Assembly: GCA_000004985.1 (NCBI GenBank)
Contig: GG738923.1
Strand: one strand, 5' to 3'
From: Naegleria gruberi
Lineage: Eukaryota
Length of the DNA stretch: 64,000 nt
The notes under the pieces are model-generated. The model worked only from the letters and a program-made list of their open reading frames with translations. It was not told the DNA's origin and did not search any database. The position numbers were made by a program, and so were the translations under genes. Positions 8,405 to 32,518 of this stretch are shown piece after piece; position 1 is the stretch's first letter; every line of letters starts with the position of its first letter.

Positions 8405-8735
8405 TATTGTACAGACAATCTTTTTTGTGAAGCGAACATTGTTATTATCATTAGAGCAAGTCTTGGTGGAGTGGGATTGAAACAAGCAAGGAAGCAAGGT
8501 ATTGCATAGATTGGAGCCTTAAAAAATCATTTGAAGATAAATTGTAACGTAGACTCTTAATTTCTAAAAAAGACTCTTTTTGACTTACAGTTTTATAAAA
8601 TACCGGCTTTATTATACCGTCTGAGCTATCAGAAAGGATTTAAAATTGATCATTACCAGTTTGGCAAAACAGTTAAATTGACCTCAATAAATCATTATTT
8701 GCCTTAACATCCAAAATCGATCAAATATAAAACTA

Positions 8736-9013: not shown

Positions 9014-11108
9014 TTATTTCTTATTTGGTTGTTTGTTAGTTGATTGTAAAATTAAAGCATTTTCATCTTCTAAAACCTTTTCAGATTTTGATTGTTTAAC
9101 AGTAATTGTTGAATTATTTAAAATCAATGCCACGTGTTCACCATTATTTGTTAAATTTACAATAAATGATTTAACCATTGGATCAATTAATGGAATGTGA
9201 ATTCTCAAATCAATACAATGGAATGGATCATCAGTCAAATTACATCTTTTAACTTTTGGAATTGAACCACGAATGACACCACTTTGTGAACTTGTCATTG
9301 ATTCTGTCATTTGATGAGCTAACATGTCATTAATCCAAACTCTGAATGGTTCATCTTCACTTGCAGGAATAGCAGCATAATGAAGATAAATTCTACTCAT
9401 TTGATCATTCTTATCACCTAATTGATTAGTATCAAATGAATCATTATGTTGTTGTTTGATTCTAATATTATTTCTATTTCCTTCTTGAGTAATTAGAATT
9501 TGAATGAATTTACCATGTTGAGAGAGATTGAAATTTTGTTGAGTATAAATATTTGCTTCAGGCATATCAATTAATAGAGAAACAATGCAATCTTCTCTTG
9601 GTAGTTTTGGAAAAGTACCTCTGACAATAACTGTTTTACCAGATGGAGTTGAATCCTCTCTCTGATACATGACTGTTTTACCTTCATAAAGTAATTTAAA
9701 TGGTTTCTCAGGTGTTGCCTTAATATTGGAAATGTAAATTGCCAAATCCATAGTTTCACCAAATTCACCTTGTTGTTTCTTCTTATTTTCAATAATTTTA
9801 GAAGGTGCTTGATCTTTCTTTAATCCCATAACTTGTCTCTTCTTTTCATCATATTCTTCTTGTTCTAAAATACCTTGTTCTAATAGAGAATCTAATTTAC
9901 TCAATTGATCTCTTTGTTGAGGTGTTAATTTTAATTTCAATCCTGAATCGTCATCATCATCATCATCATCTTCATCTCCATATTCATCTTCATCTTCATC
10001 ATCATCTGGTAATAATTGTCTCTTCTTTGCTTTATATTCTTCATCTGTTAAAATTCCTGCATCAAGTAAATCTTGAAGTTTTTGTAATTGTTCTTCAACT
10101 GTTGCAGTAGAATTGGATTTCTTTGAAGATTTCTTAACAGTTGTTGTTGTAACCATAGATTCAGATGGTCTCTTTCTTTCTTCTTCCAATTTTTTACGTT
10201 GTTGTCTCAATAGAGTTTCCTTCTTTGAAATTACTTCATCCTCTGATAAAATTTCAGATTCAACTAAATTGGCCAATTTTTCCAATTGTTGAATTTGATC
10301 TGGTGTTAATAAATCTCTTTCTTCAGGTGTTAAATTTAATTTATAACCAGAGGAGGAATTAGAAGAAACAGCAGCAGTAGTAGTAGTAGATGGTTTCTTT
10401 GAAATGGTTGTACTAGCTCCTACTCTCTTTGATGATGAAATAATTGGTTGGTCATCTGAATCATCATCTTCATCTTCAGTTGTAGAATCTTGAAGAATTT
10501 TCTTTCCAATTGCAGATTTCAATGCTGATAATTCTCTATCACTATTACTTTCATCACCACCACTTACAATAACAGCTTCATCACTACTATTATCACTACT
10601 GTTAGATGAATATTTGTTTGATGTTCTATTGTTACTACTACCACCACTACTAGTAGTAGTGTTGTTGACTTGTTTGTTAATAATTGGTCGATTATTGACA
10701 ATTCTATTAGATGATGATTTAATAATTGGTTCATCATCAGAATCATCATCTGTTGATTCGGCAACAATATGTTTACGTTGTTGACTTGATGTTGATGATG
10801 TTGTTGTTGTTGTTGGTTTGGTTGTTGTTGTTGTTGATTGAGATGGTGTAGATTTTTGACTAACAATTGGTATTTCTTCTTCTTCATCTTCTTCTTCAAA
10901 GGAACCTCCCGATAAAATCTTTTTCTTTTCCTCCTCTATTAGAGTTTAGTTTTAAGTTTCGTAAGTGATGATAATACTTACCAAAATCTTCAGGATCCAT
11001 CAAACCTTGGTCAAGGAATGATTGAAGAATTTGAATTTGTTCTCTTTGCTCATCAGTAATGTTAACCATCTTGTTTTTTTTTTGATTTAAATTAATTTCG
11101 TCATTCAC
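9014..11108 (-). CDS. Protein with four SHOCT-like motifs, acidic linkers and an unknown 300-aa C-terminal domain. Two exons: 10982..11108 and 9014..10935; intron 10936..10981.
   Basis: Exon 1 (MNDEINLNQKKNKMVNITDEQREQIQILQSFLDQGLMDPEDF) ends at GTAAGT. The intron (46 nt) ends AATAG. Exon 2 is open in phase through the ORF 9014..10522. The spliced product is 682 aa. Four motifs fit the SHOCT consensus L..L.e.GiIteeE(Y/F)..kKrqLL: LQSFLDQGLMDPEDF|EEEKKKIL (split by the intron), LEKLANLVESEILSEDEVISKKETLL, LQDLLDAGILTDEEYKAKKRQLL and LDSLLEQGILEQEEYDEKKRQVM. Confidence 0.65.
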
Positions 11109-17524: not shown

Positions 17525-18494
17525 TTGATAGATCACGATAAAGATAATAGAATAGAAATGACAAAGATTGAATATCCAAATTTGATGGAGGACTCTATTG
17601 TTTATAATATTCAATATTTTATGGGAAAGGATTATGTGTATTTAGTGGACAAAAAAAATGGGACTGTTGGATCTTTTTCTCTCAATTCAGGCCAATTGTT
17701 AGTTAACTATTATTCAGATCATAGAGGAATCAGAAAGTTTATCACTGGACCTGTTTCTTCTTGTCATGTCGTGCTGACCTATGATGGAACTATTTTTGAG
17801 AATGGAAAGGAGGTTGTTTTTTTTTCAACTGATCCACAACCGAATATTTTGAGAGCTGCATGTTGTGGAAGAGGATCAATTCTGGCTTCTTCTCATGATC
17901 TTTATGCAAGAGGAGATGATAATGTATTCTTTGCGTTTTCAGAAAAGTTTGGAGACTACAATCACAATGTTTCAGCAACAAAGTTTGTACATATTGCTAA
18001 ATTTGAACACGAAATTAGAGATATCCAATGTGGATACTTTTTTTCTGTAGTTCTTTTGCATAATAATGAATTATTGGCATGTGGCTATAATGGCTTGAAT
18101 CAATCCTCTTGGGATTCTTCCTATGGTGAGATTAAACAATTTACCAAAATTCAATACTCGTTCGGTTATATTGAGAGATTTGGCTGTTCTTCAAGAGGTA
18201 CTTGGGTTGTTAGTGGTGAGTATTTTGATGTTCTTTTTCTTATCTTTTTAAGGTGATGAGGTTACAATGGTAGGAGAGGTTGTTGAACTTTTTACAACCT
18301 TAGTTTCAAATACAGGAGTTCCAAAAATCATAAAGTTTCATCTGGAGGACTTTGATTGTGATACATTGATGAATTGTGGATGGCACTACGTGATGTACAA
18401 CCAAAACCCAAAGAAGAGTAACTATTTCAAAGAAAGACTTCATACCATGGTTGAATTGGAACTAATTACTGACCTTGGTTTCATTTGCCAATAA
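17525..18494 (+). CDS. RCC1-like (beta-propeller repeat) protein. Two exons: 17525..18215 and 18253..18494; intron 18216..18252.
   Basis: Blade-like motifs ILASSHDLYARGDDN, VVLLHNNELLACGYNGLNQSS and RGTWVVSG. GTGAGT donor and TTTAAG acceptor (37-nt intron) join in phase to GDEVTMVGEVVELF...GFICQ*. Paralogous to 32519..33862. Confidence 0.55.
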
Positions 18495-18886
18495 GGCAAC
18501 TGGAGGAAATACATTGAAGGAATCGGTTTATTCCTTAAGCACAGCATGTGTCTCTGCCAAGTTTTTAACTTGAGGAAAACTAAGGAAGTCTGGAATTTCA
18601 ATGCACTTAAAAATAGTTTCTTAACAAAACAGAATATTTGTTGAAAAGTCTGTCGCTGGTAAGAGTGAGTTTATTCAAGAATTGGAAGATCAATTTGATT
18701 CTCAAACTCATTTGACTAAGTATAACTGATGCATAACTGTTAAAAGATCCATAGGGTGAGTCAACTAATTGCCAAATGATGATTTGAAGATTAACAAATT
18801 TTAAAATTAAGGTATGAGCAATCGATCTCTTATGCACCAATTTGTTTATTAAGGCGAATTAAGGAATGATATTTATCTTTATGTAA

Positions 18887-18957
18887 TCGGGCGTGGTATA
18901 GTGGTAGCATTCCAGACTGTCACTCTGGCGACCCGGGTTCAATTCCCGGCGTTCGAG
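18887..18957 (+). tRNA. tRNA-Asp (anticodon GUC), copy 1.
   Basis: TCGGGCGTGGTATAGTGGTAGCATTCCAGACTGTCACTCTGGCGACCCGGGTTCAATTCCCGGCGTTCGAG. Acceptor stem with 2 G-U pairs, Asp-type GUAU D-stem, anticodon stem CCAGA/TCTGG with loop CTGTCAC, and T-arm CCGGG-TTCAATT-CCCGG. Confidence 0.75.
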
Positions 18958-19318
18958 TTCAATTTTATGTAGTTTTTGAAAATTTATCTTGGAGTTTTGT
19001 ATCGAAGTTTGGACATCATTTTTCTATTTTAAATATGTGTGAAAAATGTCACGAAGCATGTTTGAAACTTTTGTAGTGAGAATATGGAGAGAGTGGATAC
19101 AATATCATTCATAGAAAGCCTAATGTGTTGTTTAGGTGGTATTGTTGTGTTCTATTAATAATAATTGAAATTAAGGTATGTACCATTTGTTTGTATTGAT
19201 TTAAATTTATTGAGTTATTAGTGTTGATATATAGTTATAGTAAACAATTAAGAAAACTTGAAAGATTCAGATCAGAATTGTAACACTTGTTAGTGATTGA
19301 GTTTCTTAGTAAAAAAAA

Positions 19319-20563
19319 ATGCGAAACAATAAAGAGGGGAAAGTTAGATTTTTTCTTTGTGATTTTAAACTTCCTTCCAGTGATGATAATTCCACTCAAA
19401 TATTAAATTGGTTAAAAATCAAATTTGGCCAATTAAAATTTTCATCATTTAATTGTTCATCAATAAGAGATTTTAAATTTTGTTCCGATAATTTATTGGA
19501 AAGAATTGATAGGATGGGATTTGAAAAACCATCCTATGTGCATAGGCAGTGTATTTTTCCAATGATTCGTTCTCATGAGAGTCAAGATTATTTATTCGAA
19601 AATTGTGGTGAAGGAACAGATCGGATTGTTTCGTATGTGATTGGAATTATTGAAAGAAGATATCGAATGAGGAATGAAAAGAATGGAACGACCATTGTGA
19701 TTGGAAATGGATGGCAATGGGCATATACTGTTAGATATTTGTTAAAATCTTTAGGAGGAGATGATTTGAAAGTTTGTTTGTGTTTGGAAGGATTCAGGGC
19801 AAGTACTTTTCAAGGAAATGAGGATGTGATTGTTGGAATTTGTAACAATGTGAACAATCTTGTCAATTCTGGGTCTCTAAAAGCAAAGGATGTAAATTTA
19901 TTGATTATTGATCAAGCTAATCATTTGATTTTTGATTTAGATTGTGGTTTACATATACTGATGTGGAATTTTAATTGTAAAGTTTGTTGGTTTTGTCTAA
20001 CTGATTGTCTGAAGGAAAATCCTCTGAGAGATCCCATCAAGATTCAAATATTGAAAGATGGAACAGATTATCCTGATCTGAGAGCTTCTTACTCTAAGAA
20101 TTTTTACATTGATGTAGAAATTGAAGACTACAAATACGAAACTATCAGTGATTTATTCGATATTTTGGATGGTCTTCGAGCAGTAGTGTACTGTGAATCA
20201 GATGAGAAAGCTAAGGCAATTTGTGAAAAATTGCAAGATCGGTTTCTTGTAGCATGTTTACACAGAGGCCTTGGAGAAACACAAATTGAGGAAATTAGAC
20301 AAGATTTTAATTGGGCAAAGGTTAGATTTTTATTTACAACAGATCATTTCTCTAAACTTGAATATCATCCAGTCTTGGTGATAAACTATGATTTACCATG
20401 GCAAAATGAAAAGTATGCACTTCGACAAATCACATCAAGGTTTAGAAATACAGCAACTATCAGCTTGATACGACACGAAGACGTTATTAAGATTAGAGAA
20501 ATTGAGAAATTTTATTTCATTGAAATTCAAGAATGTCCGTATGCCATTCTCGATTACCTTTGA
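19319..20563 (+). CDS. eIF4A-like DEAD-box helicase paralog with degenerate catalytic motifs (putative pseudo-helicase).
   Basis: 414-aa ORF colinear with eIF4A. RMGFEKPSYVHRQCIFPMIRSHESQDYLFENCGEGTDR corresponds to GFEKPSAIQQRAI...AQSGTGKT, with the Q-motif kept and the Walker A GKT lost. LIIDQANHL corresponds to VLDEADEML (DEAD lost). VLVINYDLPWQNEKYALRQITSRFRN corresponds to LVINYDLP.N.E.YIHRIGRGGR (motif VI lost). Domain 2 core (AVVYCESDEKAKAICEKL...FLFTTDHFSK) is retained. Confidence 0.75.
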   Translation: MRNNKEGKVRFFLCDFKLPSSDDNSTQILNWLKIKFGQLKFSSFNCSSIRDFKFCSDNLLERIDRMGFEKPSYVHRQCIFPMIRSHESQDYLFENCGEGTDRIVSYVIGIIERRYRMRNEKNGTTIVIGNGWQWAYTVRYLLKSLGGDDLKVCLCLEGFRASTFQGNEDVIVGICNNVNNLVNSGSLKAKDVNLLIIDQANHLIFDLDCGLHILMWNFNCKVCWFCLTDCLKENPLRDPIKIQILKDGTDYPDLRASYSKNFYIDVEIEDYKYETISDLFDILDGLRAVVYCESDEKAKAICEKLQDRFLVACLHRGLGETQIEEIRQDFNWAKVRFLFTTDHFSKLEYHPVLVINYDLPWQNEKYALRQITSRFRNTATISLIRHEDVIKIREIEKFYFIEIQECPYAILDYL

Positions 20564-20716
20564 TGAATTTCGAATGAATAGAAAGACAAGAAAAGGATAT
20601 CCTTCTTTGAAAAGAATACTGCTGATATCTTCAATTTTGGATATTAATTTATACATATTAATTATTACATAGAAATTTTCCTTCAATTCATGAATTTCAA
20701 TTTGGGAAATAGAAAA

Positions 20717-21853
20717 CTAAAAGTAATTGTTAACTGTAAGGGAACTGACCTCAGGTGCTGTGAGTGCCTTAGTGAAAATCATTACATTAGCAATATATCC
20801 AGTATAGTAATAAGTTCCAGCATTGTGTCCACCAATGGTCAACTTTCCATCACTCAAATTCTTGGAGGCAATTGAAGTTGCACTGGTCTTGTATAATGAT
20901 CCGTCAATATAGAGATCAGTACCATCAGTTCTAAAAACAAATACTAAATGTCTCCAAACATCGGTTGCAAATAGGGTTCCATCAGTTACAAAAGGTGTAG
21001 TAAACTTGTCATCATAAAAACTAAACCCTTTGGCAGAAGCAACGTTGAAGAAAATGTAATTACCATTAGTACTGAAAGCCATTGCAACACCTCCATAAGG
21101 GCTCTTAAGCCACAATGAAAAGCTGTTGGAAACTGTAAGATTGACATTCACAGTAGAAGCGAGACCATTCTTCTTTCCATCGAAATAAACTGATTTACCA
21201 CCTGGGAATGGTGAATCATTGGAAAAGACTGGATTTGAAGAAGCACCTTGATTTGGATTGTTAACCAAGTGGAGAGAACCAACACTATCAGCGAAGGTAT
21301 TATTGAAATAGTAAGCATGGGCAAGATATGGAGTCATTGGTGCTGTGAAAAAGGAGGAACAAGAGGCTCCAATATATGGTTTTGTACAAGTGCAATTATT
21401 AGGAGCAATACATGAACCGTGTCCAGAGCAAACCGAAGCATTATTAGCAGCCAATCCAAAACATACTGGGACACAGTTAGGATAATTGGTAAAACCATCT
21501 TGGCATGCATTACAATCAGAACCATTGTAAGTGGAACACTGGGAATTAATGACACGAATTTCAGCATCTAATAAGGCTATTGCTGAAGCAACTTTGGACA
21601 ATTGCTTGCTTCTCAAATCAATAATGGTCTTTAAAGATGGTGCTGATGAAGAATTACTAGTAAAGAAGGTGCTGTTTAACAAGTTAATAGTATTCTCTAA
21701 CTTGGTTTTGGTGCATGCCACAGCATCTCTTTCCTTTTGTAAAGAAGCTAAATAATCCCTCAATCCACCTGTTGTTTGGTGAAGAGTAAGTGTTATATTG
21801 GCTAGTAAGAGGAAAACTACTAGCAGCGCGCAAAACCTTAGCAATTGAATCAT
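20717..21853 (-). CDS. Secreted protein with signal peptide, EGF-like Cys-rich module and a concanavalin-A-like lectin / LamG (Laminin_G_3-type) domain.
   Basis: N-terminal MIQLLRFCALLVVFLLLANITLT signal. Cys pattern CSTYNGSDCNACQDGFTNYPNCVPVC...CSGHGSCIAPNNCTCTKPYIGASC (EGF-like). C-terminal WLKSPYGGVAMAF...VWRHLVFVFRTDGTDLYIDGSLY...LTIGGHNAGTYYYTGYIANVMIFTKALTAPEV matches the LamG/pentraxin jelly-roll consensus (W.H.....DG...lYvDG......iG......f.G.i..v.i...aLs..E). Confidence 0.75.
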   Translation of the reverse strand: MIQLLRFCALLVVFLLLANITLTLHQTTGGLRDYLASLQKERDAVACTKTKLENTINLLNSTFFTSNSSSAPSLKTIIDLRSKQLSKVASAIALLDAEIRVINSQCSTYNGSDCNACQDGFTNYPNCVPVCFGLAANNASVCSGHGSCIAPNNCTCTKPYIGASCSSFFTAPMTPYLAHAYYFNNTFADSVGSLHLVNNPNQGASSNPVFSNDSPFPGGKSVYFDGKKNGLASTVNVNLTVSNSFSLWLKSPYGGVAMAFSTNGNYIFFNVASAKGFSFYDDKFTTPFVTDGTLFATDVWRHLVFVFRTDGTDLYIDGSLYKTSATSIASKNLSDGKLTIGGHNAGTYYYTGYIANVMIFTKALTAPEVSSLTVNNYF

Positions 21854-22382
21854 GTTGTTGTTGGTTGGTATTAAGGAAGATCGTACTTAATCCTGTGAGG
21901 AGTTTTTTTTGAAAACAGTGGTCCTTTTGATTGGTGCTTGTTTGGTCGCATCTTCGTTTACAGTAAAATCCACTGTAACGGATAGTTTTTTAAGGAACTG
22001 TATTGGAATGGATTGTTGAGGCTTTCAATATTGTAGATTATTGTTTATACGACTTGATAAATTGCAACCAAATCAATATGGTTGGATATTAAGCAGCGGA
22101 TATCGACTTTGAATGTGATTTTGTTGAATAAAATTGCATGAAGTTCGATTGTATGTTGTCCCTAGTGTCAGGACGGTCCTTTATTTTGTCGATCTAAAAT
22201 GAGGAAATCGCTCCCCACAAAACAAAAAACAGATGGACCAATTTAAAATAAATAATTTTGGTTTGCTGTTTTGTCTAACAAAATCAAGATTGTTTGGACC
22301 AACATAACATTAATGATTGTATGTTGTCTAGTCTGATGGTAACAGTAAAAATGGAGCCTGACATCAAAATAATAATGATAAT

Positions 22383-23336
22383 TTAAATGGAAAACTTAAT
22401 GTATTCGTGAAATTGAGCAGATGATCCAGGATAAAAATCTTGTTGAAATTGTAAATGTTTTGCTTCTTCTTGAATTGTAACAGAAGATTTAATTGTTTGA
22501 AGAGATTTGATAACATCACTTTTCGTTGGTTGTGATAGGGCATTAAGACTAATATTGAAACTATTATTGGTAGCCATTAAGGCATTTCTAATAATGTTCA
22601 TCTGTGAATCCCTTACTACACACATTAAATCCGCATATGAATATCCATCACACATTGTGGAAATCTCCTCAATTTCATCATCTTGTATTGAACTATTTCT
22701 AAATGCATCTCTCAATATCTCAATCCTTTTCTCCTTATCTGGAAGAGGAATGTGAAATCTCCTCTTAAATATTTTCCTCACAGCTGGATTAATATTCCAA
22801 GGTGTTGAGCTTATAACCAAAACAATTACCCTACTCTCACGATCATACATGGATTGGAGAAATTCTTTCAAAACTGAAATTTCCTTCTCTGAATTACTAT
22901 TCCAATCACAAAATTCCAAATCATCGATTACTATAATACTTGGTTGACTAAGTTTTGCTTTTTCAAATACTTCTTGCATTGAACGTTTAAAATCATGATC
23001 TTGAGTGTAGATTACTTCTGCTTTTATCCTTTCATCGGTGAGTATTTTCTTAGTTAAATAGGTTTTACCCTTTTCCGATCAAATCAAAATATTAAATTTA
23101 ATATTACTCTCCAAATGATCATGATATTTGCTTACCACTCCTGGACATCCGTGAATTAATATTTCATTCCAAACTTTTGCATCAGGATATTCGAGAGGGA
23201 GAAGAATACTCTCAAGAAGTTCTTCTTCAATGCTAAGTTTTTTCTGTTGCAGCTGTTGTTCTTCTTCGCTAATAGAGGAAATTGTGGAATTGTGTTGTAA
23301 CATTTTTTTGTTGTAATGTTGATTGCATTCGTACAC
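22383..23336 (-). CDS. Short AAA+ ATPase (classic AAA clade) with non-canonical Walker B and sensor-1. Two exons: 23136..23336 and 22383..23069; intron 23070..23135. 295 aa.
   Basis: Exon 1 ends ...LIHGCPGV at GTAAGC. After a 66-nt intron, exon 2 continues GKTYLTKKIL, reconstituting Walker A GCPGVGKT. Walker B is IIVIDDLEF (DD instead of DE). Sensor-1 region VIVLVISSTPWNINPA lacks the Asn. Arg-finger region RKIFKRRFHIPLPDKEKRIEIL and the helical lid ISTMCDGYSYADLMCVVRD are AAA-typical. Confidence 0.7.
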
Positions 23337-23411
23337 ATGATTGTTTATTAATAGTTTGAAAGGTCGACTTGATTAAATGATGGAACAATGTAGTAGCACC
23401 ATCGAGTGGAA

Positions 23412-24767
23412 TTATTCAATGGAGGTCTTGAAATTATAAATGTGATTGAATTTGACTTCTAATAAGCTTAGTTCTTTGATTGCGTTTTGGATCAATGAAT
23501 CAATGAGTTGAGTTTTTTCATTGGATTTCTTCTTGCATAGTTTCTTATGAGCTGATTTTGCTTCCTCTAAACATTGAATTCTATCCTTGAGAGCTCTTGG
23601 TATCCTTTCTTGCTTAATATACGAATGGGCACGATCATTTCTATCATTAATGATGGATTGAACATCTGAAAGCTTGAATAATTCTCTGAATTTCCTAACT
23701 CTGGAATTTTCGTCATCCACCATTTTGTCTTCGCATGCTAATACTGACCTAATACAATCGGTGAATATCTTATTGATGTGATTGTATTGATCCTCGATTG
23801 AAATCTTTTGTTTCTCTAAGCAAAGGGTACTTTTAAATGCTTCGAATCTTCCAAGACAAGTAATAAGCTGTTTACACAAATCAAAATTACCAGAATCAAA
23901 CAGTTTAAAGAATACCTTAATAATATCAATATCTCCTTTCAGAATTGCTTTAGCAACAAGGAGAGTGGCTGCATTCTCGGAGGGTGGGGCTGATTTCTCC
24001 CTGTGTTTCAGTACAATCCCATTCACAGTTACAGGATCCTCCATGGTAATGGTTGAAATCAAGCGAATCATCAAATCATCGTCGTTACAAATATGAGGAA
24101 TTATTTCTTTACATTTGAAAGTATTATTTTCCAATGCGGCAACCAAGTCCAGTTCTGTAAAATTAGTAGTTGATTGATCTGGTTGTTGAATCTCCTTATC
24201 AGCTGCCCATGCTGTCTCTTTTGTATCTTTTACATGTGGTTTTGTTGTTGTGCGTTTCTTCTCCTTTCCAATAGGCTTTGGGGCTGTAGTGGAACTCAAA
24301 TTAGCAACCACAGTTTTCACTACTGTAGTATTTGATGAAGAAGCAGATTGATTCGAAACTGGTAAAGGTATTCTTGCAAGTACAGTTTTGACTTGGTCAA
24401 CAATATTTGTATTTGGAATATCTTCGACAAGGTTGACAAATTCTCCAATACTATATTTGAAACCTTGATGACCGTGTAATTTCTTCTTTTCATAAGAAAT
24501 ATCAACATCATAATAGAATTTCTGTTCAAAAACATGATACAAATCAACTCTTTCATCAAACTCCCAACAATGAGAATAAAGTAATTTACACCAACTCTTC
24601 AAACATGTTCTCTTCACCCACATTCTTTCCAAGTCTGTCGATCTTTCAACATGATATTCAAGCAGCCTCTCACTCCTATCCACTTCACAATTTCCTCTGT
24701 AAATATAATGATATTTGTGATCATCTAAATAGACTCTTGCACCCAAGTTATCTGGATAAAATATCCN
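23412..24767 (-). CDS. Copy 1 of the unknown 517-aa protein gene; 5' end runs into N-gap 24768..24816 (partial).
   Basis: ORF 23412..24746 corresponds to residues about 74-517 of the complete copy. It has a one-residue indel (KRTTTKPHV vs KRTTKPHV). Confidence 0.5.
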   Translation of the reverse strand, partial: XIFYPDNLGARVYLDDHKYHYIYRGNCEVDRSERLLEYHVERSTDLERMWVKRTCLKSWCKLLYSHCWEFDERVDLYHVFEQKFYYDVDISYEKKKLHGHQGFKYSIGEFVNLVEDIPNTNIVDQVKTVLARIPLPVSNQSASSSNTTVVKTVVANLSSTTAPKPIGKEKKRTTTKPHVKDTKETAWAADKEIQQPDQSTTNFTELDLVAALENNTFKCKEIIPHICNDDDLMIRLISTITMEDPVTVNGIVLKHREKSAPPSENAATLLVAKAILKGDIDIIKVFFKLFDSGNFDLCKQLITCLGRFEAFKSTLCLEKQKISIEDQYNHINKIFTDCIRSVLACEDKMVDDENSRVRKFRELFKLSDVQSIINDRNDRAHSYIKQERIPRALKDRIQCLEEAKSAHKKLCKKKSNEKTQLIDSLIQNAIKELSLLEVKFNHIYNFKTSIE

Positions 24768-25218
24768 NNNNNNNNNNNNNNNNNNNNNNNNNNNNNNNNN
24801 NNNNNNNNNNNNNNNNTTGCCAATAAGGCAACTGGAGGAAATACATTGAAGGAATCGGTTTATTCCTTAAGCACAGCATGTGTCTCTGCCAAGTTTTTAA
24901 CTTGAGGAAAACTAAGGAAGTCTGGAATTTCAATGCACTTAAAAATAGTTTCTTAACAAAACAGAATATTTGTTGAAAAGTCTGTCGCTGGTAAGAGTGA
25001 GTTTATTCAAGAATTGGAAGATCAATTTGATTCTCAAACTCATTTGACTAAGTATAACTGATGCATAACTGTTAAAAGATCCATAGGGTGAGTCAACTAA
25101 TTGCCAAATGATGATTTGAAGATTAACAAATTTTAAAATTAAGGTATGAGCAATCGATCTCTTATGCACCAATTTGTTTATTAAGGCGAATTAAGGAATG
25201 ATATTTATCTTTATGTAA

Positions 25219-25289
25219 TCGGGCGTGGTATAGTGGTAGCATTCCAGACTGTCACTCTGGCGACCCGGGTTCAATTCCCGGCGTTCGAG
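25219..25289 (+). tRNA. tRNA-Asp (anticodon GUC), copy 2 (identical, in duplication unit 2).
   Basis: Same 71-nt sequence 6332 bp downstream of copy 1. Confidence 0.75.
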
Positions 25290-25650
25290 TTCAATTTTAT
25301 GTAGTTTTTGAAAATTTATCTTGGAGTTTTGTATCGAAGTTTGGACATCATTTTTCTATTTTAAATATGTGTGAAAAATGTCACGAAGCATGTTTGAAAC
25401 TTTTGTAGTGAGAATATGGAGAGAGTGGATACAATATCATTCATAGAAAGCCTAATGTGTTGTTTAGGTGGTATTGTTGTGTTCTATTAATAATAATTGA
25501 AATTAAGGTATGTACCATTTGTTTGTATTGATTTAAATTTATTGAGTTATTAGTGTTGATATATAGTTATAGTAAACAATTAAGAAAACTTGAAAGATTC
25601 AGATCAGAATTGTAACACTTGTTAGTGATTGAGTTTCTTAGTAAAAAAAA

Positions 25651-25914
25651 ATGCGAAACAATAAAGAGGGGAAAGTTAGATTTTTTCTTTGTGATTTTAA
25701 ACTTCCTTCCAGTGATGATAATTCCACTCAAATATTAAATTGGTTAAAAATCAAATTTGGCCAATTAAAATTTTCATCATTTAATTGTTCATCAATAAGA
25801 GATTTTAAATTTTGTTCCGATAATTTATTGGAAAGAATTGATAGGATGGGATTTGAAAAACCATCCTATGTGCATAGGCAGTGTATTTTTCCAATGATTC
25901 GTTCTCATGAGAGT
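25651..25914 (+). CDS. Second copy of the eIF4A-like degenerate helicase gene, 5' part only (truncated by N-gap 25915..27305).
   Basis: Identical N-terminal 88 codons (MRNNKEGKVRFFLCDFKL...MIRSHES) before the gap. Confidence 0.6.
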
Positions 25915-27305
25915 NNNNNNNNNNNNNNNNNNNNNNNNNNNNNNNNNNNNNNNNNNNNNNNNNNNNNNNNNNNNNNNNNNNNNNNNNNNNNNNNNNNNNN
26001 NNNNNNNNNNNNNNNNNNNNNNNNNNNNNNNNNNNNNNNNNNNNNNNNNNNNNNNNNNNNNNNNNNNNNNNNNNNNNNNNNNNNNNNNNNNNNNNNNNNN
26101 NNNNNNNNNNNNNNNNNNNNNNNNNNNNNNNNNNNNNNNNNNNNNNNNNNNNNNNNNNNNNNNNNNNNNNNNNNNNNNNNNNNNNNNNNNNNNNNNNNNN
26201 NNNNNNNNNNNNNNNNNNNNNNNNNNNNNNNNNNNNNNNNNNNNNNNNNNNNNNNNNNNNNNNNNNNNNNNNNNNNNNNNNNNNNNNNNNNNNNNNNNNN
26301 NNNNNNNNNNNNNNNNNNNNNNNNNNNNNNNNNNNNNNNNNNNNNNNNNNNNNNNNNNNNNNNNNNNNNNNNNNNNNNNNNNNNNNNNNNNNNNNNNNNN
26401 NNNNNNNNNNNNNNNNNNNNNNNNNNNNNNNNNNNNNNNNNNNNNNNNNNNNNNNNNNNNNNNNNNNNNNNNNNNNNNNNNNNNNNNNNNNNNNNNNNNN
26501 NNNNNNNNNNNNNNNNNNNNNNNNNNNNNNNNNNNNNNNNNNNNNNNNNNNNNNNNNNNNNNNNNNNNNNNNNNNNNNNNNNNNNNNNNNNNNNNNNNNN
26601 NNNNNNNNNNNNNNNNNNNNNNNNNNNNNNNNNNNNNNNNNNNNNNNNNNNNNNNNNNNNNNNNNNNNNNNNNNNNNNNNNNNNNNNNNNNNNNNNNNNN
26701 NNNNNNNNNNNNNNNNNNNNNNNNNNNNNNNNNNNNNNNNNNNNNNNNNNNNNNNNNNNNNNNNNNNNNNNNNNNNNNNNNNNNNNNNNNNNNNNNNNNN
26801 NNNNNNNNNNNNNNNNNNNNNNNNNNNNNNNNNNNNNNNNNNNNNNNNNNNNNNNNNNNNNNNNNNNNNNNNNNNNNNNNNNNNNNNNNNNNNNNNNNNN
26901 NNNNNNNNNNNNNNNNNNNNNNNNNNNNNNNNNNNNNNNNNNNNNNNNNNNNNNNNNNNNNNNNNNNNNNNNNNNNNNNNNNNNNNNNNNNNNNNNNNNN
27001 NNNNNNNNNNNNNNNNNNNNNNNNNNNNNNNNNNNNNNNNNNNNNNNNNNNNNNNNNNNNNNNNNNNNNNNNNNNNNNNNNNNNNNNNNNNNNNNNNNNN
27101 NNNNNNNNNNNNNNNNNNNNNNNNNNNNNNNNNNNNNNNNNNNNNNNNNNNNNNNNNNNNNNNNNNNNNNNNNNNNNNNNNNNNNNNNNNNNNNNNNNNN
27201 NNNNNNNNNNNNNNNNNNNNNNNNNNNNNNNNNNNNNNNNNNNNNNNNNNNNNNNNNNNNNNNNNNNNNNNNNNNNNNNNNNNNNNNNNNNNNNNNNNNN
27301 NNNNN
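25915..27305. other. Assembly gap (1391 N) inside duplication unit 2. Smaller gaps at 1906..2184 and 24768..24816.
   Basis: Runs of N. The ORFs drawn across them in the six-frame track are artefacts. Confidence 1.
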
Positions 27306-28188
27306 AATAGGGTTCATCAGTTACAAAAGGTGTAGTAAACTTGTCATCATAAAAACTAAACCCTTTGGCAGAAGCAACGTTGAAGAAAATGTAATTACCA
27401 TTAGTACTGAAAGCCATTGCAACACCTCCATAAGGGCTCTTAAGCCACAATGAAAAGCTGTTGGAAACTGTAAGATTGACTGTCACAGTAGAAGCGAGAC
27501 CATTCTTCTTTCCATCGAAATAAACTGATTTACCACCTGGGAATGGTGAATCATTGGAAAAGACTGGATTTGAAGAAGCACCTTGATTTGGATTGTTAAT
27601 CAAGTGGAGAGAACCAGCACTATCAGCGAAAGTATTATTGAAATAGTAAGCATGGGCAAGATATGGAGTCATTGGTGCTGTGAAAAAGGAGGAACAAGAG
27701 GCTCCAATATATGGTTTTGTACAAGTGCAATTATTAGGAGCAATACATGAACCGTGTCCAGAGCAAACCGAAGCATTATTAGCAGCCAATCCAAAACATA
27801 CTGGGACACAGTTAGGATAATTGGTAAAACCATCTTGGCATGTATTACAATCAGAACCATTGTAAGTGGAACACTGGGAATTAATGACACGAATTTCAGC
27901 ATCTAATAAGGCTATTGCTGAAGCAACTTTGGACAATTGCTTGCTTCTCAAATCAATAATGGTCTTTAAAGATGGTGCTGATGAAGAATTACTAGTAAAG
28001 AAGGTGCTGTTTAACAAGTTAATAGTATTCTCTAACTTGGTTTTGGTGCATGCCACAGCATCTCTTTCCTTTTGTAAAGAAGCTAAATAATCCCTCAATC
28101 CACCTGTTGTTTGTTGAAGAGTAAGTGTTATATTGGCTAGTAAGAGGAAAACTACTAGCAGCGCGCAAAACCTTAGCAATTGAATCAT
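27306..28188 (-). CDS. Second copy of the EGF/LamG secreted protein gene; N-terminal about 294 codons present, 3' end lost in N-gap.
   Basis: About 99% identical to 20962..21853. Amino-acid differences seen: H25Q, A116T, V/A and V/I changes, N/T. Confidence 0.6.
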
Positions 28189-28717
28189 GTTGTTGTTGGT
28201 TGGTATTAAGGAAGATCGTACTTAATCCTGTGAGGAGTTTTTTTTGAAAACAGTGGTCCTTTTGATTGGTGCTTGTTTGGTCGCATCTTCGTTTACAGTA
28301 AAATCCACTGTAACGGATAGTTTTTTAAGGAACTGTATTGGAATGGATTGTTGAGGCTTTCAATATTGTAGATTATTGTTTATACGACTTGATAAATTGC
28401 AACCAAATCAATATGGTTGGATATTAAGCAGCGGATATCGACTTTGAATGTGATTTTGTTGAATAAAATTGCATGAAGTTCGATTGTATGTTGTCCCTAG
28501 TGTCAGGACGGTCCTTTATTTTGTCGATCTAAAATGAGGAAATCGCTCCCCACAAAACAAAAAACAGATGGACCAATTTAAAATAAATAATTTTGGTTTG
28601 CTGTTTTGTCTAACAAAATCAAGATTGTTTGGACCAACATAACATTAATGATTGTATGTTGTCTAGTCTGATGGTAACAGTAAAAATGGAGCCTGACATC
28701 AAAATAATAATGATAAT

Positions 28718-29671
28718 TTAAATGGAAAACTTAATGTATTCGTGAAATTGAGCAGATGATCCAGGATAAAAATCTTGTTGAAATTGTAAATGTTTTGCTT
28801 CTTCTTGAATTGTAACAGAAGATTTAATTGTTTGAAGAGATTTGATAACATCACTTTTCGTTGGTTGTGATAGGGCATTAAGACTAATATTGAAACTATT
28901 ATTGGTAGCCATTAAGGCATTTCTAATAATGTTCATCTGTGAATCCCTTACTACACACATTAAATCCGCATATGAATATCCATCACATTTTGTGGAAATC
29001 TCCTCAATTTCATCATCTTGTATTGAACTATTTCTAAATGCATCTCTCAATATCTCAATCCTTTTCTCCTTATCTGGAAGAGGAATGTGAAATCTCCTCT
29101 TAAATATTTTCCTCACAGCTGGATTAATATTCCAAGGTGTTGAGCTTATAACCAAAACAATTACCCTACTCTCACGATCATACATGGATTGGAGAAATTC
29201 TTTCAAAACTGAAATTTCCTTCTCTGAATTACTATTCCAATCACAAAATTCCAAATCATCGATTACTATAATACTTGGTTGACTAAGTTTTGCTTTTTCA
29301 AATACTTCTTGCATTGAACGTTTAAAATCATGATCTTGAGTGTAGATTACTTCTGCTTTTATCCTTTCATCGGTGAGTATTTTCTTAGTTAAATAGGTTT
29401 TACCCTTTTCCGATCAAATCAAAATATTAAATTTAATATTACTCTCCAAATGATCGTGATATTTGCTTACCACTCCTGGACATCCGTGAATTAATATTTC
29501 ATTCCAAACTTTTGCATCAGGATATTCGAGAGGGAGAAGAATACTCTCAAGAAGTTCTTCTTCAATGCTAAGTTTTTTCTGTTGCAGCTGTTGTTCTTCT
29601 TCACTCACAGAGGAAATTGTGGAATTGTGTTGTAACATTTTTTTGTTGTAATGTTGATTGCATTCGTACAC
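28718..29671 (-). CDS. Second copy of the short AAA+ ATPase gene (exons 29471..29671 and 28718..29404).
   Basis: Identical structure at offset +6335. Two amino-acid differences (I/V in SSISEEE vs SSVSEEE; M/K in ISTMCDGY vs ISTKCDGY). Confidence 0.7.
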
Positions 29672-29746
29672 ATGATTGTTTATTAATAGTTTGAAAGGTC
29701 GACTTGATTAAATGATGGAACAATGTAGTAGCACCATCGAGTGGAA

Positions 29747-31300
29747 TTATTCAATGGAGGTCTTGAAATTATAAATGTGATTGAATTTGACTTCTAATAA
29801 GCTTAGTTCTTTGATTGCGTTTTGGATCAATGAATCAATGAGTTGAGTTTTTTCATTGGATTTCTTCTTGCATAGTTTCTTATGAGCTGATTTTGCTTCC
29901 TCTAAACATTGAATTCTATCCTTGAGAGCTCTTGGTATCCTTTCTTGCTTAATATACGAATGGGCACGATCATTTCTATCATTAATGATGGATTGAACAT
30001 CTGAAAGCTTGAATAATTCTCTGAATTTCCTAACTCTGGAATTTTCGTCATCCACCATTTTGTCTTCGCATGCTAATACTGACCTAATACAATCGGTGAA
30101 TATCTTATTGATGTGATTGTATTGATCCTCGATTGAAATCTTTTGTTTCTCTAAGCAAAGGGTACTTTTAAATGCTTCGAATCTTCCAAGACAAGTAATA
30201 AGCTGTTTACACAAATCAAAATTACCAGAATCAAACAGCTTAAAGAATACCTTAATTATATCAATATCTCCTTTCAGAATTGCTTTAGCAACAAGGAGAG
30301 TGGCTGCATTCTCGGAGGGTGGGGCTGATTTCTCCCTGTGTTTCAGTACAATCCCATTCACAGTTACAGGATCCTCCATGGTAATGGTTGAAATCAAGCG
30401 AATCATCAAATCATCGTCGTTACAAATATGAGGAATTATTTCTTTACATTTGAAAGTATTATTTTCCAATGCGGCAACCAAGTCCAGTTCTGTAAAATTA
30501 GTAGTTGATTGATCTGGTTGTTGAATCTCCTTATCAGCTGCCCATGCTGTCTCTTTCGTATCTTTTACATGTGGTTTTGTAGTGCGTTTCTTCTCCTTTC
30601 CAATAGGCTTTGGGGCTGTAGTGGAACTCAAATTAGCAACCACAGTTTTCACTACTGTAGTATTTGATGAAGAAGCAGATTGATTCGAAACTGGTAAAGG
30701 TATTCTTGCAAGTACAGTTTTGACTTGGTCAACAATATTTGTATTTGGAATATCTTCGACAAGGTTGACAAATTCTCCAATACTATATTTGAAACCTTGA
30801 TGACCGTGTAATTTCTTCTTTTCATAAGAAATATCAACATCATAATAGAATTTCTGTTCAAAAACATGATACAAATCAACTCTTTCATCAAACTCCCAAC
30901 AATGAGAATAAAGTAATTTACACCAACTCTTCAAACATGTTCTCTTCACCCACATTCTTTCCAAGTCTGTCGATCTTTCAACATGATATTCAAGCAGCCT
31001 CTCACTCCTATCCACTTCACAATTTCCTCTGTAAATATAATGATATTTGTGATCATCTAAATAGACTCTTGCACCCAAGTTATCTGGATTAAAATTATCC
31101 GAAATGACTTCATAAACAGATAATAATTGATTCTTGAATGGAAAATCTACTTTGATTTCTCTCGACCATTTTTCAACAACTGAATCTCCCTTGAGCATGT
31201 AAACAATAAAGGCTTTGTTGTAGAGGACATCCATCATGTACTGCTTTTTAGGATCATAATTCGGAATGTGTGTTTGTGCTTCAGAACGGAATTGAGACAT
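29747..31300 (-). CDS. Hypothetical 517-aa protein, no recognisable domain (complete copy). It lies 75 bp upstream of the AAA+ ATPase gene, co-oriented.
   Basis: Single ORF, not low-complexity. The N-terminal half is rich in conserved-looking aromatic/charged residues (RVYLDDHKYHYIYRGNCEVDRSERLLEYHVERSTDLERMWVKRTCLKSWCKLLYSHCWEFDE). The C-terminal half is alpha-helical and Lys/Glu-rich. Confidence 0.6.
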   Translation of the reverse strand: MSQFRSEAQTHIPNYDPKKQYMMDVLYNKAFIVYMLKGDSVVEKWSREIKVDFPFKNQLLSVYEVISDNFNPDNLGARVYLDDHKYHYIYRGNCEVDRSERLLEYHVERSTDLERMWVKRTCLKSWCKLLYSHCWEFDERVDLYHVFEQKFYYDVDISYEKKKLHGHQGFKYSIGEFVNLVEDIPNTNIVDQVKTVLARIPLPVSNQSASSSNTTVVKTVVANLSSTTAPKPIGKEKKRTTKPHVKDTKETAWAADKEIQQPDQSTTNFTELDLVAALENNTFKCKEIIPHICNDDDLMIRLISTITMEDPVTVNGIVLKHREKSAPPSENAATLLVAKAILKGDIDIIKVFFKLFDSGNFDLCKQLITCLGRFEAFKSTLCLEKQKISIEDQYNHINKIFTDCIRSVLACEDKMVDDENSRVRKFRELFKLSDVQSIINDRNDRAHSYIKQERIPRALKDRIQCLEEAKSAHKKLCKKKSNEKTQLIDSLIQNAIKELSLLEVKFNHIYNFKTSIE

Positions 31301-31437
31301 TTTGTTTAATTTTGAAAAAGCCTAAAATTTCTGTTCTTCAAGCCCAAAAATATTTTTTTCAAAACAAATCTTTTTGTGGAACGTGAAAAATCACATTTCC
31401 TTGTTGTTGGTTGGGAATTCAAAGATAATGTTGATCT

Positions 31438-32349
31438 TTATTCATTTTGTATTATTAAGATTTTCAGTTTTTTCATGTTAATTAGGTGTTGAACGCCTTC
31501 ATTTTCCAGAAAGTGATTATTTCTAATACAAAGCTCAGTTAAATTTTCTAGTTGACTGATTGCTTTGGCACCTTCATCCGTTATATAATTCGAGCTAACA
31601 TGCAGAATACGCAATTGTTTCATTTCACTAATATATTTGGCTCCTTCATTACCAATTTCATTTTCGCTAATGTTCAGCTCACTTAATTGTTTTAATTGAC
31701 TGATGAACTGAGCTCCTTCTATTCCGATATAGTTTTTTGTAATAGCTAATTTTCTTAATTCAGATAGTTCTCCAATAAATTTAGAGCCCTCTTTTCCAAT
31801 TCCACAGAAAACAACTTTTAATTCTCTTAATTTTTTCAGTTGACCAATTAACTTTGCTCCCTCCACTCCAATATAATTATAACCAATGTCAAGAAAAGTC
31901 AAATGACTAAGTTGACTAATAATATAAACTCCATTAATTCCAATACTATTACTACTAATATCAAGTTCAGTTAATTGTTTCAATTCACTCAAATATTTTG
32001 CTGCTTTATCGTCAATAAAATTGGAAGAAATGTACAATTTTGTTAATTGTGACATTTTCCCAAGAACTACCAAGAATTTATATTGATTTAAAACCCCATA
32101 ACCAACTTTAATCTCATAAATACGATCTAAGTATTTACTTTCCATCAATGACTTTAGTTTGGTAATTCGATCATTAAATTCAATTAAAAGTTTCGAATAC
32201 ATTCCAATAATTCTTAACCATTGTTTAGAAATTAAACAACAATTCAGCAAGATGAATTTACCATCATCAATAAAAGATATTATCTCACAACACACATCAT
32301 CAGAAAAAAATTGAGCTGCAGCAACATTCCGAAAAGTAATTTCCTTCAT
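31438..32349 (-). CDS. F-box-like / RNI-type LRR protein (paralog of 7712..8404).
   Basis: FFSDDVCCEIISFIDDGKFILLNCCLISKQWLRII followed by 28-aa LRRs (ELKQLTELDISSNSIGINGV, GAKLIGQLKKLRELKV, GAQFISQLKQLSELNISENEIGNEGAKYISEMKQLRIL). Confidence 0.65.
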   Translation of the reverse strand: MKEITFRNVAAAQFFSDDVCCEIISFIDDGKFILLNCCLISKQWLRIIGMYSKLLIEFNDRITKLKSLMESKYLDRIYEIKVGYGVLNQYKFLVVLGKMSQLTKLYISSNFIDDKAAKYLSELKQLTELDISSNSIGINGVYIISQLSHLTFLDIGYNYIGVEGAKLIGQLKKLRELKVVFCGIGKEGSKFIGELSELRKLAITKNYIGIEGAQFISQLKQLSELNISENEIGNEGAKYISEMKQLRILHVSSNYITDEGAKAISQLENLTELCIRNNHFLENEGVQHLINMKKLKILIIQNE

Positions 32350-32518
32350 TTTTTTTAAAAAAAATATAAATCGAAACTAAATTCTTTTATCCATTTTAGA
32401 TAGTAAAATATTGTAAAAATTACCTTGATAGCAATTTGCCTTAATATTAGTGCTGAGTGAACTTGCTTTCATTGTAACGCTGCATTAATAATGAAATTTA
32501 AAAATTATTTTAAAAAAA

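What the first reader, a model, noticed from the sequence alone, without database searches (positions are those of the whole stretch)
18485..31300. Recent tandem segmental duplication of a 6.3-kb five-gene cassette, with assembly gaps at the junction
The stretch from 18485 to about 24767 is repeated at 24817 to about 31150 with a constant offset (6332-6335 bp) and about 99% identity. Protein-level differences are few: AAA ATPase I/V and M/K; LamG protein H/Q, A/T, V/A, V/I, N/T; a one-codon indel in the 517-aa protein. Each unit carries tRNA-Asp(GUC), a degenerate eIF4A-like gene, an EGF+LamG secreted protein, a short AAA+ ATPase and an unknown 517-aa protein. The unit junction coincides with N-gap 24768..24816, and unit 2 has a 1391-N gap. 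This is either a very young tandem duplication or two haplotypes/alleles mis-joined in tandem by the assembler.
Basis: seen in the sequence. Interest (0 to 1): 0.65.

Follow-up and report, generated by a model that had tools for sequence, protein, structure and literature searches.

The report
Unmerged haplotype contigs mimicking a duplication
The apparent 6.3-kb tandem duplication in this Naegleria gruberi scaffold is most likely one locus written twice, because the assembler failed to merge the two slightly different parental copies at a scaffold gap; it is ordinary, but it has left a spurious tRNA gene, extra gene copies and one chimeric protein in the public annotation.

Summary
The repeat is in the sequence. 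18485-19582 equals 24817-25914 at 100% over 1,098 bp, and 20970-24766 equals 27306-31100 at 99.4%. Both ends of the repeat are contig ends, not places where similarity decays. Copy 1 stops at the last base before the 50-N gap, and copy 2 starts at the first base after it. The tail of one contig therefore overlaps the head of the next ("duplicated overlapping contigs"). The window is Naegleria gruberi NEG-M, by my recollection a Sanger shotgun assembly. [quoted passage not shown] The copies differ by 0.45% in one part and 0% in the other. The only frame-breaking differences are 1-nt homopolymer indels within 10 nt of contig ends. Neither copy is complete, and together they make exactly one gene set. 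A 98%-identical environmental relative runs straight from the unit end into the right flank. It produced a chimeric annotated protein, NAEGRDRAFT_75286. Proof needs read depth or the existing Nanopore re-assembly, neither available here. A real young duplication stays at about 10%. Interest is low.

The parts
18485..24766 (.). Copy 1: the last 6,282 bp of the upstream contig (contig A), ending at the last base before the 50-N gap
   Evidence: The final 13 nt (ggataaaatatcc) differ from copy 2 (ggattaaaattatcc) only by two 1-nt T deletions, i.e. a ragged read-tail end.
24767..24816 (.). 50-N scaffold gap between contig A and the next contig. It looks like a placeholder or minimum size, unlike the 279-N and 1,391-N gaps (inference).
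   Evidence: The repeat abuts it on both sides.
24817..25914 (.). Small contig B1 (1,098 bp) between two gaps, 100% identical to 18485-19582. It is a 'duplicated contained contig'.
25915..27305 (.). 1,391-N gap standing for the 1,387 bp present in copy 1 (19583-20969)
27306..31100 (.). Copy 2: the first 3,795 bp of contig B2, 99.4% identical to 20970-24766. Contig B2 then continues into unique right flank.
   Evidence: There is a 1-nt C-homopolymer deletion 9 nt from the contig start.
18267..18494 (+). Last exon of the upstream RCC1-like gene. The left edge of the repeat (18485) lies 10 nt before its stop codon.
18887..18957 (+). tRNA-Asp(GTC), copy 1
25219..25289 (+). tRNA-Asp(GTC), copy 2. 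It is identical to copy 1 and probably the same gene counted twice.
19319..20563 (+). Divergent eIF4A-like helicase ORF (414 aa; only Helicase_C recognised; about 27% identical to eIF4A). Annotated as NAEGRDRAFT_54002. It is complete only in copy 1; copy 2 keeps codons 1-88 (25651-25914).
20717..21853 (-). Secreted EGF + Laminin_G_3 protein (378 aa), complete only in copy 1. The copy-2 fragment is 27306-28188.
22383..23303 (-). Short AAA+ ATPase gene, apparently two exons, with the Walker A motif (GCPG|KGKT) split by a short intron. The copy-2 equivalent is 28718-29638.
   Evidence: exon structure inferred from frames.
29747..31300 (-). 517-aa protein with no Pfam family (NAEGRDRAFT_54005), complete only here. 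The repeat ends 200 nt inside its 5' part.
23412..24766 (-). Copy-1 version of the same gene, cut by the end of contig A (first 73 codons missing). It carries the +1 codon (TTT) allele.
23415..28188 (-). Annotated chimeric gene model NAEGRDRAFT_75286 / XP_002669729.1 (710 aa). Residues 1-283 are the copy-2 LamG fragment (28188-27340). Residues 283-710 are the copy-1 517-aa gene fragment (24698-23415). Its 'intron' spans both N gaps.

Best explanation
This is most likely an assembly artefact: a false 'heterotype' duplication, also called duplicated overlapping contigs.

The window is part of a 326,815-bp scaffold of Naegleria gruberi, which I take to be the heterozygous diploid strain NEG-M. 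By my recollection it was assembled from about 8x Sanger shotgun reads at JGI.

Proposed mechanism (inferred):
- At this locus the two haplotypes differ by about 0.5%, and the assembler did not merge them.
- Contig A carries the left flank plus the locus from one haplotype and runs out of reads 200 nt short of the start codon of the 517-aa gene.
- Contigs B1 and B2 carry the same locus from the other haplotype at low coverage, which explains the internal 1.39-kb gap. They continue into the right flank.
- Mate pairs ordered the contigs A, B1, B2. The true distance between A and B1 is negative (about -6.3 kb), which a scaffold cannot express, so a nominal 50-N gap was written.

The result reads as a tandem repeat with a period of 6,332-6,336 nt, but the genome probably holds one copy per haplotype.

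Shown here: the geometry, the divergence, the ragged contig ends, the complementarity of the two copies, the organism, and the effect on annotation. Inferred: that reads of two haplotypes underlie the two copies, and that the 50-N gap is a floor value.
For: 1. Both ends of the repeat are defined only by contig ends. Copy 1 ends at 24766, the last base before the gap. Copy 2 starts at 24817, the first base after it. Similarity never decays into unrelated sequence.
2. The organism is N. gruberi. P0123 is NAEGRDRAFT_54002 at 100% identity on a 326,815-bp scaffold.
3. [quoted passage not shown] The copies show 17 substitutions plus one in-frame 3-nt indel in about 3.78 kb (0.45%), next to 1,098 bp with no difference.
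5. All interior ORFs stay intact in both copies. At 11 sites that can be compared with an independent 98% relative (L001), copy 1 has the relative's state at 8 and copy 2 at 3. I take this to mean both copies carry real variants rather than sequencing noise.
6. The copies are complementary. Copy 1 lacks the 5' end of the 517-aa gene and copy 2 lacks 1,387 bp, so the union is exactly one complete gene set.
7. In the relative (ENA ERZ929261 contig k127_8321, L001) one contig runs without a break from the AAA gene through the position equivalent to 24766/31100 into the LRR gene of the right flank. It encodes a full-length 518-aa protein with the copy-1 type extra codon.
8. The literature gives this geometry as the hallmark of false duplications, most frequent in Sanger assemblies. 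A gap between duplicated pairs on one scaffold is a listed criterion (Ko et al. 2022, PMC9516828). Of 'duplicated overlapping contigs', 80-97% were judged mis-assembled by mate pairs in the chicken, chimpanzee and cow assemblies (Kelley & Salzberg 2010, PMC2864568).
Against: - No reads, mate pairs or depth data for NEG-M could be examined, so the decisive criteria (haploid depth on both copies, mate pairs that fit better after merging) are untested.
- The geometry is also what a true tandem duplication would give if the assembler broke exactly at the junction, because the junction would then be hidden in the 50-N gap.
- The first 1,098 bp are 100% identical. It is not obvious why an assembler would keep a separate contig for sequence without any haplotype difference. 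It may have been dragged in by mate links.
- The relative's single-copy arrangement says nothing about a duplication younger than the roughly 2% split between it and NEG-M.
- The Sanger/JAZZ origin of the assembly is from my memory of Fritz-Laylin et al. 2010, which I could not open.
Confidence: 0.85

Rival explanations
1. A real, very young tandem segmental duplication of about 6.3 kb exists in the N. gruberi NEG-M genome. The assembler could separate the two copies by their 0.5% divergence but could not cross the junction, and left the 50-N gap there. Copy 1 of the 517-aa gene would then be a 5'-truncated pseudogene fused to the tail of the RCC1-like gene. There would be a second tRNA-Asp and second copies of the helicase-like, LamG and AAA genes.
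For: The period is constant, and the copies are adjacent and in the same orientation. A gap at a repeat junction is also expected for true repeats. All interior ORFs are intact in both copies. Between 3% and 20% of overlapping-contig cases in Kelley & Salzberg's three heterozygous assemblies were not confirmed as mis-assemblies.
Against: - No junction sequence is visible. Contig A follows the 517-aa gene to its very last base.
- The divergence equals the organism's allelic polymorphism.
- In a heterozygous region, a true duplication should yield up to four sequence versions, yet only two are seen.
- Ragged contig ends and a 1.39-kb hole in copy 2 suggest half coverage rather than full coverage.
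- The relative shows no branch at the unit end.
- Young 6-kb duplications at a given site are rare compared with false duplications at gaps in Sanger assemblies.
Confidence: 0.1
2. This is an artefact, but of the 'homotype' kind. Reads of one and the same sequence were split into two contigs because of sequencing errors, not because of haplotype differences. A variant of this idea is that the duplication exists on only one of the two haplotypes, as a heterozygous structural variant.
For: Contig B1 (24817-25914) is 100% identical to contig A, which is the homotype pattern for that piece. The indels at the contig ends are error-like.
Against: The interior differences are clean substitutions, two dinucleotide changes and one in-frame codon indel. 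None breaks an ORF. Each copy shares some states with the independent relative L001. That pattern fits real alleles rather than read errors. Nothing in the sequence points to a hemizygous duplication.
Confidence: 0.05

Closest known systems
Duplicated overlapping / contained contigs (Kelley & Salzberg 2010, Genome Biol 11:R28, PMC2864568)
   Same: Two neighbouring contigs of one scaffold align at their facing ends (contig A tail versus contig B2 head, 3.8 kb at 99.4%). A small contig (B1) is wholly contained in its neighbour. The organism is a heterozygous diploid, and the result looks like a recent segmental duplication.
   Different: Their call rests on mate-pair distances before and after merging, which could not be examined here. 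Their cases are vertebrates; this one is a protist genome with mosaic heterozygosity.
False heterotype duplications (Ko et al. 2022, Genome Biol 23:205, PMC9516828; VGP terminology)
   Same: There is a gap between the duplicated pair on the same scaffold, there are haplotype-level differences between the copies, and there are false gene gains and chimeric gene models. Here these are a second tRNA-Asp, second AAA and 517-aa genes, and the chimera NAEGRDRAFT_75286.
   Different: Haploid read depth and single-copy k-mers, two of their four criteria, are untested here.
Genuine young tandem segmental duplication
   Same: The copies are head-to-tail at a constant period, have more than 99% identity and carry intact ORFs.
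   Different: No junction is observed. The repeat edges are contig ends. Neither copy is complete. The divergence is indistinguishable from allelic polymorphism.

Membership tests
False heterotype duplication / duplicated overlapping contigs (assembly artefact) | The two copies lie on different contigs of one scaffold, separated by an assembly gap | tested here: met
   The 50-N gap at 24767-24816 lies exactly between the copies.
False heterotype duplication / duplicated overlapping contigs (assembly artefact) | The alignment runs to the facing ends of the contigs (tail of one, head of the next) | tested here: met
   Copy 1 ends at 24766 and copy 2 starts at 24817. The alignment reaches both gap edges.
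False heterotype duplication / duplicated overlapping contigs (assembly artefact) | Differences between copies are at the level of the organism's heterozygosity and look like real alleles | tested here: met
   Divergence is 0.45% in 3.78 kb and 0% in 1.1 kb, against a published mosaic with a 0.58% mean. ORFs are intact, and both copies share states with the relative L001.
False heterotype duplication / duplicated overlapping contigs (assembly artefact) | Read depth at haploid level (about half of the flanks) on both copies | not testable with these tools
   No reads of N. gruberi NEG-M are reachable. Exact-protein look-ups found no other assembly of this strain.
False heterotype duplication / duplicated overlapping contigs (assembly artefact) | Mate pairs or long reads fit better when the contigs are merged, and an independent long-read assembly shows a single copy | not testable with these tools
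   A Nanopore/Flye re-assembly exists (PMC12695648) but is not held in any collection I could search.
True tandem segmental duplication | A novel junction: the end of the unit joined to the start of the unit | tested here: inconclusive
   No junction is present in the window. Contig A follows the single-copy sequence to its last base, and the rest would be hidden in the 50 N.
True tandem segmental duplication | Each copy is a full unit with its own flank continuity | tested here: not met
   Copy 1 lacks 200 nt of the 517-aa ORF and copy 2 lacks 1,387 bp. Together they give one complete unit.
True tandem segmental duplication | Duplication or a branch at the unit end seen in independent data | tested here: not met
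   The only independent data are from a 98% relative. Its contig L001 passes from the unit end into the right flank without a break. This does not exclude a strain-specific event.

The most novel reading that the evidence does not exclude
The duplication is real. In that case N. gruberi NEG-M acquired, within roughly the time needed to accumulate 0.4% divergence, a 6.3-kb tandem copy. The copy carries tRNA-Asp, a divergent eIF4A-like helicase, a secreted EGF/LamG protein and an AAA+ ATPase. It also carries a 5'-truncated copy of a lineage-restricted 517-aa gene. The LamG copies would already differ at 5 amino-acid positions against 1 synonymous change.
Probability: 0.1. Interest if true: 0.25.

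Novelty: not a real feature. Interest (0 to 1): 0.08.

Why it matters
Biologically it matters little, but it has practical consequences. The N. gruberi reference is widely used for reconstructing early eukaryote gene content.

If this is an artefact, this locus inflates the reference in several ways:
- It adds one tRNA-Asp gene.
- It adds an extra AAA+ ATPase gene.
- It adds an extra copy of the 517-aa gene.
- It carries a chimeric protein, XP_002669729.1 / NAEGRDRAFT_75286, in which a LamG N-terminus is fused to an unrelated C-terminus. That protein is now in NCBI, UniRef and EukProt, and it could be misread as a domain fusion or as a recent paralogue.

The case also shows a quick sequence-only screen for such errors. 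The signs are a repeat whose two edges coincide with the two edges of an N gap, divergence close to the heterozygosity of the organism, and error-like indels confined to contig ends.

Tried and rejected
- Exact-protein look-ups of window ORFs, to find other assemblies of the same strain. I tried the 517-aa protein, LamG, LRR and both AAA alleles, and the annotated P0123. All were 'not on record'.
- A look-up of the top NFS1 hit, P0003. It turned out to be a bacterial isc operon and was irrelevant. P0004 is an 89% heterolobosean relative from another part of the window.
- A scan of JGI metagenome contigs with the eIF4A-like protein, which found no relative. A relative's flank continuity cannot decide a strain-specific event, and no junction pattern can be designed because the junction would lie in the gap.
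- The metagenome contig L006, which I hoped would cross the left edge (18485). It is collinear only down to about 18558 and unrelated upstream, so it is uninformative.
- Fritz-Laylin et al. 2010, which could not be opened. The heterozygosity figure is therefore cited second-hand, and the assembly method is from my memory.
- The idea that the differences are sequencing noise (homotype artefact). I rejected it for the interior of the copies. The reasons are that the changes are clean, the ORFs are preserved, and each copy shares some states with L001.
- The 279-N gap at 1906-2184. I checked it through the self-BLAST and it has no duplicated flanks.
Full report
**Observation**

The window has three N runs: 1906-2184 (279 N), 24767-24816 (50 N) and 25915-27305 (1,391 N). 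Its GC content is 31.8%.

A self-BLAST finds one long repeat, in two blocks:
- 18485-19582 = 24817-25914, 1,098 bp at 100% identity.
- 20970-24766 = 27306-31100, 3,799 columns at 99.4%, with 17 mismatches and 4 gap openings.

The 1,391-N run replaces the 1,387 bp that lie between the two blocks in copy 1. ARAGORN finds tRNA-Asp(GTC) at 18887-18957 and 25219-25289.

- a helicase-like ORF with only Helicase_C recognised
- an EGF + Laminin_G_3 protein
- an AAA fragment
- a 517-aa ORF without a family

The gap starts at 24767, and the repeat ends at 31100.

**Anatomy of the repeat edges**

This is the key point. Copy 1 ends at 24766, the last base before the 50-N gap. Copy 2 begins at 24817, the first base after it.

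The other two edges, 18485 and 31100, are simply the positions that correspond to those contig ends. Nowhere does similarity fade into unrelated sequence, so the repeat is an overlap between the tail of one contig and the head of the next.

- The left edge lies 10 nt before the stop codon of the upstream RCC1-like gene's last exon (18267-18494).
- The right edge lies 200 nt inside the 517-aa ORF (29747-31300, minus strand).

Neither copy is complete. Copy 1 lacks the first 73 codons of the 517-aa gene. Copy 2 lacks most of the helicase-like gene and the 3' end of the LamG gene. Their union is exactly one complete set.

**Differences between the copies**

In the interior there are 17 substitutions and one in-frame 3-nt indel in about 3.78 kb, which is 0.45%. 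Two of the changes are dinucleotide changes. The first 1,098 bp have none.

If differences were spread evenly, 17 of 17 falling outside the 1,098 bp has a probability of about 0.013 by my arithmetic, (3780/4878)^17. The divergence is therefore patchy.

The only frame-breaking differences are single-base homopolymer indels within 10 nt of contig ends:
- cc to c at 20979, 9 nt into contig B2
- two T deletions in the last 13 nt of contig A

I read these as read-tail errors. Contig A follows the 517-aa gene sequence to its last base, and no junction sequence is present.

**Organism**

- The mitochondrial cysteine desulfurase ORF (55448-56971) is closest to Naegleria lovaniensis (82%) and Willaertia magna (81%).
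- The helicase-like ORF is 100% identical to 'predicted protein [Naegleria gruberi]' NAEGRDRAFT_54002, on a 326,815-bp record.
- The 517-aa ORF is NAEGRDRAFT_54005.

The window is therefore the N. gruberi reference. By my recollection of Fritz-Laylin et al. 2010 this is strain NEG-M, assembled at JGI from Sanger shotgun reads. I could not open that paper.

[quoted passage not shown] It is regarded as diploid (PMC9928731). The 0.45% and 0% pattern between the copies is what two alleles of this organism should look like.

**Independent sequence**

A metagenome assembly (ENA ERZ929261, run ERR1078381) contains a relative that is about 98% identical.

- Contig L001 (5,346 bp) is collinear with window 28675-32351. 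It runs from the AAA gene through the position equivalent to 24766/31100 into the LRR gene of the right flank, without a break. It encodes a full-length 518-aa protein with the extra codon seen in copy 1.
- At the 11 comparable variant sites, copy 1 agrees with L001 at 8 and copy 2 at 3. I take this to mean both copies carry real variants.
- Contig L006 covers 18558-20757 but is unrelated further upstream, so it does not inform on the left edge.

The relative gives no sign of a tandem junction, but it cannot exclude an event specific to NEG-M.

**Comparison with what is known**

Kelley & Salzberg (PMC2864568) describe this configuration. [quoted passage not shown] They call these 'duplicated overlapping contigs', and small ones wholly inside a neighbour 'duplicated contained contigs'.

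In their chicken, chimpanzee and cow assemblies, mate pairs confirmed 5,698 of 5,947, 13,159 of 13,571 and 1,094 of 1,366 such overlaps as mis-assemblies.

Ko et al. (PMC9516828) list four hallmarks of false duplications:
- half read depth
- a gap between the duplicated pair on the same scaffold
- discordant read pairs
- single-copy heterozygous k-mers

They found false duplications to be highest in Sanger assemblies and mostly of the heterotype (two-haplotype) kind.

Here contig B1 (24817-25914) is a contained contig, and contig B2 (27306 onward) overlaps the tail of contig A. The features testable from sequence are met. The read-based features are not testable here.

**Consequence for annotation**

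The public protein NAEGRDRAFT_75286 / XP_002669729.1 (710 aa) is a chimera.
- Residues 1-283 map at 100% to 28188-27340, the copy-2 LamG fragment with all five copy-2 variants.
- Residues 283-710 map to 24698-23415, the copy-1 517-aa gene with the extra codon.
- Its 'intron', 27339-24699, spans both N gaps and all of contig B1.

If the artefact reading is right, the reference also counts tRNA-Asp, the AAA gene and the 517-aa gene twice.

**Verdict**

The best explanation, at about 0.85, is that unmerged haplotype contigs were placed in tandem across a nominal gap, so this is not a biological duplication.

A real young tandem duplication stays at about 0.10. The same geometry would arise if the assembler had broken exactly at a true junction, and no reads could be examined.

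A homotype artefact or a hemizygous structural variant takes the remaining 0.05 or so.

The decisive data exist. Nanopore reads and a Flye re-assembly of N. gruberi are described in PMC12695648 and PMC12344493, but neither is reachable with these tools.

Interest is low. The value lies in flagging the chimeric protein and the duplicated genes for users of the reference.

Noticed in passing
window 23415-28188 (-): The annotated protein NAEGRDRAFT_75286 / XP_002669729.1 (710 aa) fuses the copy-2 LamG N-terminus (28188-27340) to the copy-1 517-aa gene (24698-23415). Its 'intron' contains both N gaps. It is a chimera created by the assembly structure, and it is present in NCBI, UniRef and EukProt.
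   Followed up: yes
window 25915-27305: The 1,391-N gap is within 4 nt of the 1,387 bp it stands for in copy 1. That is unusually exact for a mate-pair size estimate. It might instead be masked sequence of nearly preserved length. Unexplained.
   Followed up: no
L001 1-1588 and L006 1-352 (ENA ERZ929261, run ERR1078381, PRJEB11402): A metagenome holds an organism about 98% identical to N. gruberi at this locus. Collinearity stops at window positions of about 18558 and 32351. Beyond these the relative has a NUDIX gene and a longer (432-aa) LRR gene on one side and unrelated sequence on the other. It also has a 175-nt insertion near window 18630.
   Followed up: partly
window 19319-20563 (+): The eIF4A-like ORF is only about 27% identical to eIF4A proteins, and Pfam recognises only its Helicase_C half. 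The only close relatives found are the N. gruberi model and the metagenome relative. It looks like a lineage-restricted, possibly catalytically degenerate DEAD-box derivative. The annotated model (349 aa) starts 65 codons downstream of the first ATG of the ORF.
   Followed up: partly
window 29747-31300 (-): The 517-aa protein has no Pfam family. It has one 40%-identical paralogue in N. gruberi (NAEGRDRAFT_70540, on another scaffold). That paralogue's near-identical environmental counterpart lies next to an RGS-domain gene in the metagenome.
   Followed up: no
window 22383-23303 (-) and 28718-29638 (-): The 'short AAA+ ATPase' seems to be a two-exon gene whose Walker A motif (GCPG|KGKT) is split by a short intron. 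The 198-aa ORF is only its second exon.
   Followed up: partly
window 7989-8405: A tandem array with a 72-nt period (5.7 copies, 73-79% matches). I take it to encode 24-residue leucine-rich repeats, inferred from the period and the repeat unit. The ORF was not translated or scanned against Pfam.
   Followed up: no
window 9014-10522 (-): An ORF with two SHOCT domains. To my knowledge this is mainly a bacterial domain, so it may be a candidate for lateral gene transfer into Naegleria.
   Followed up: no
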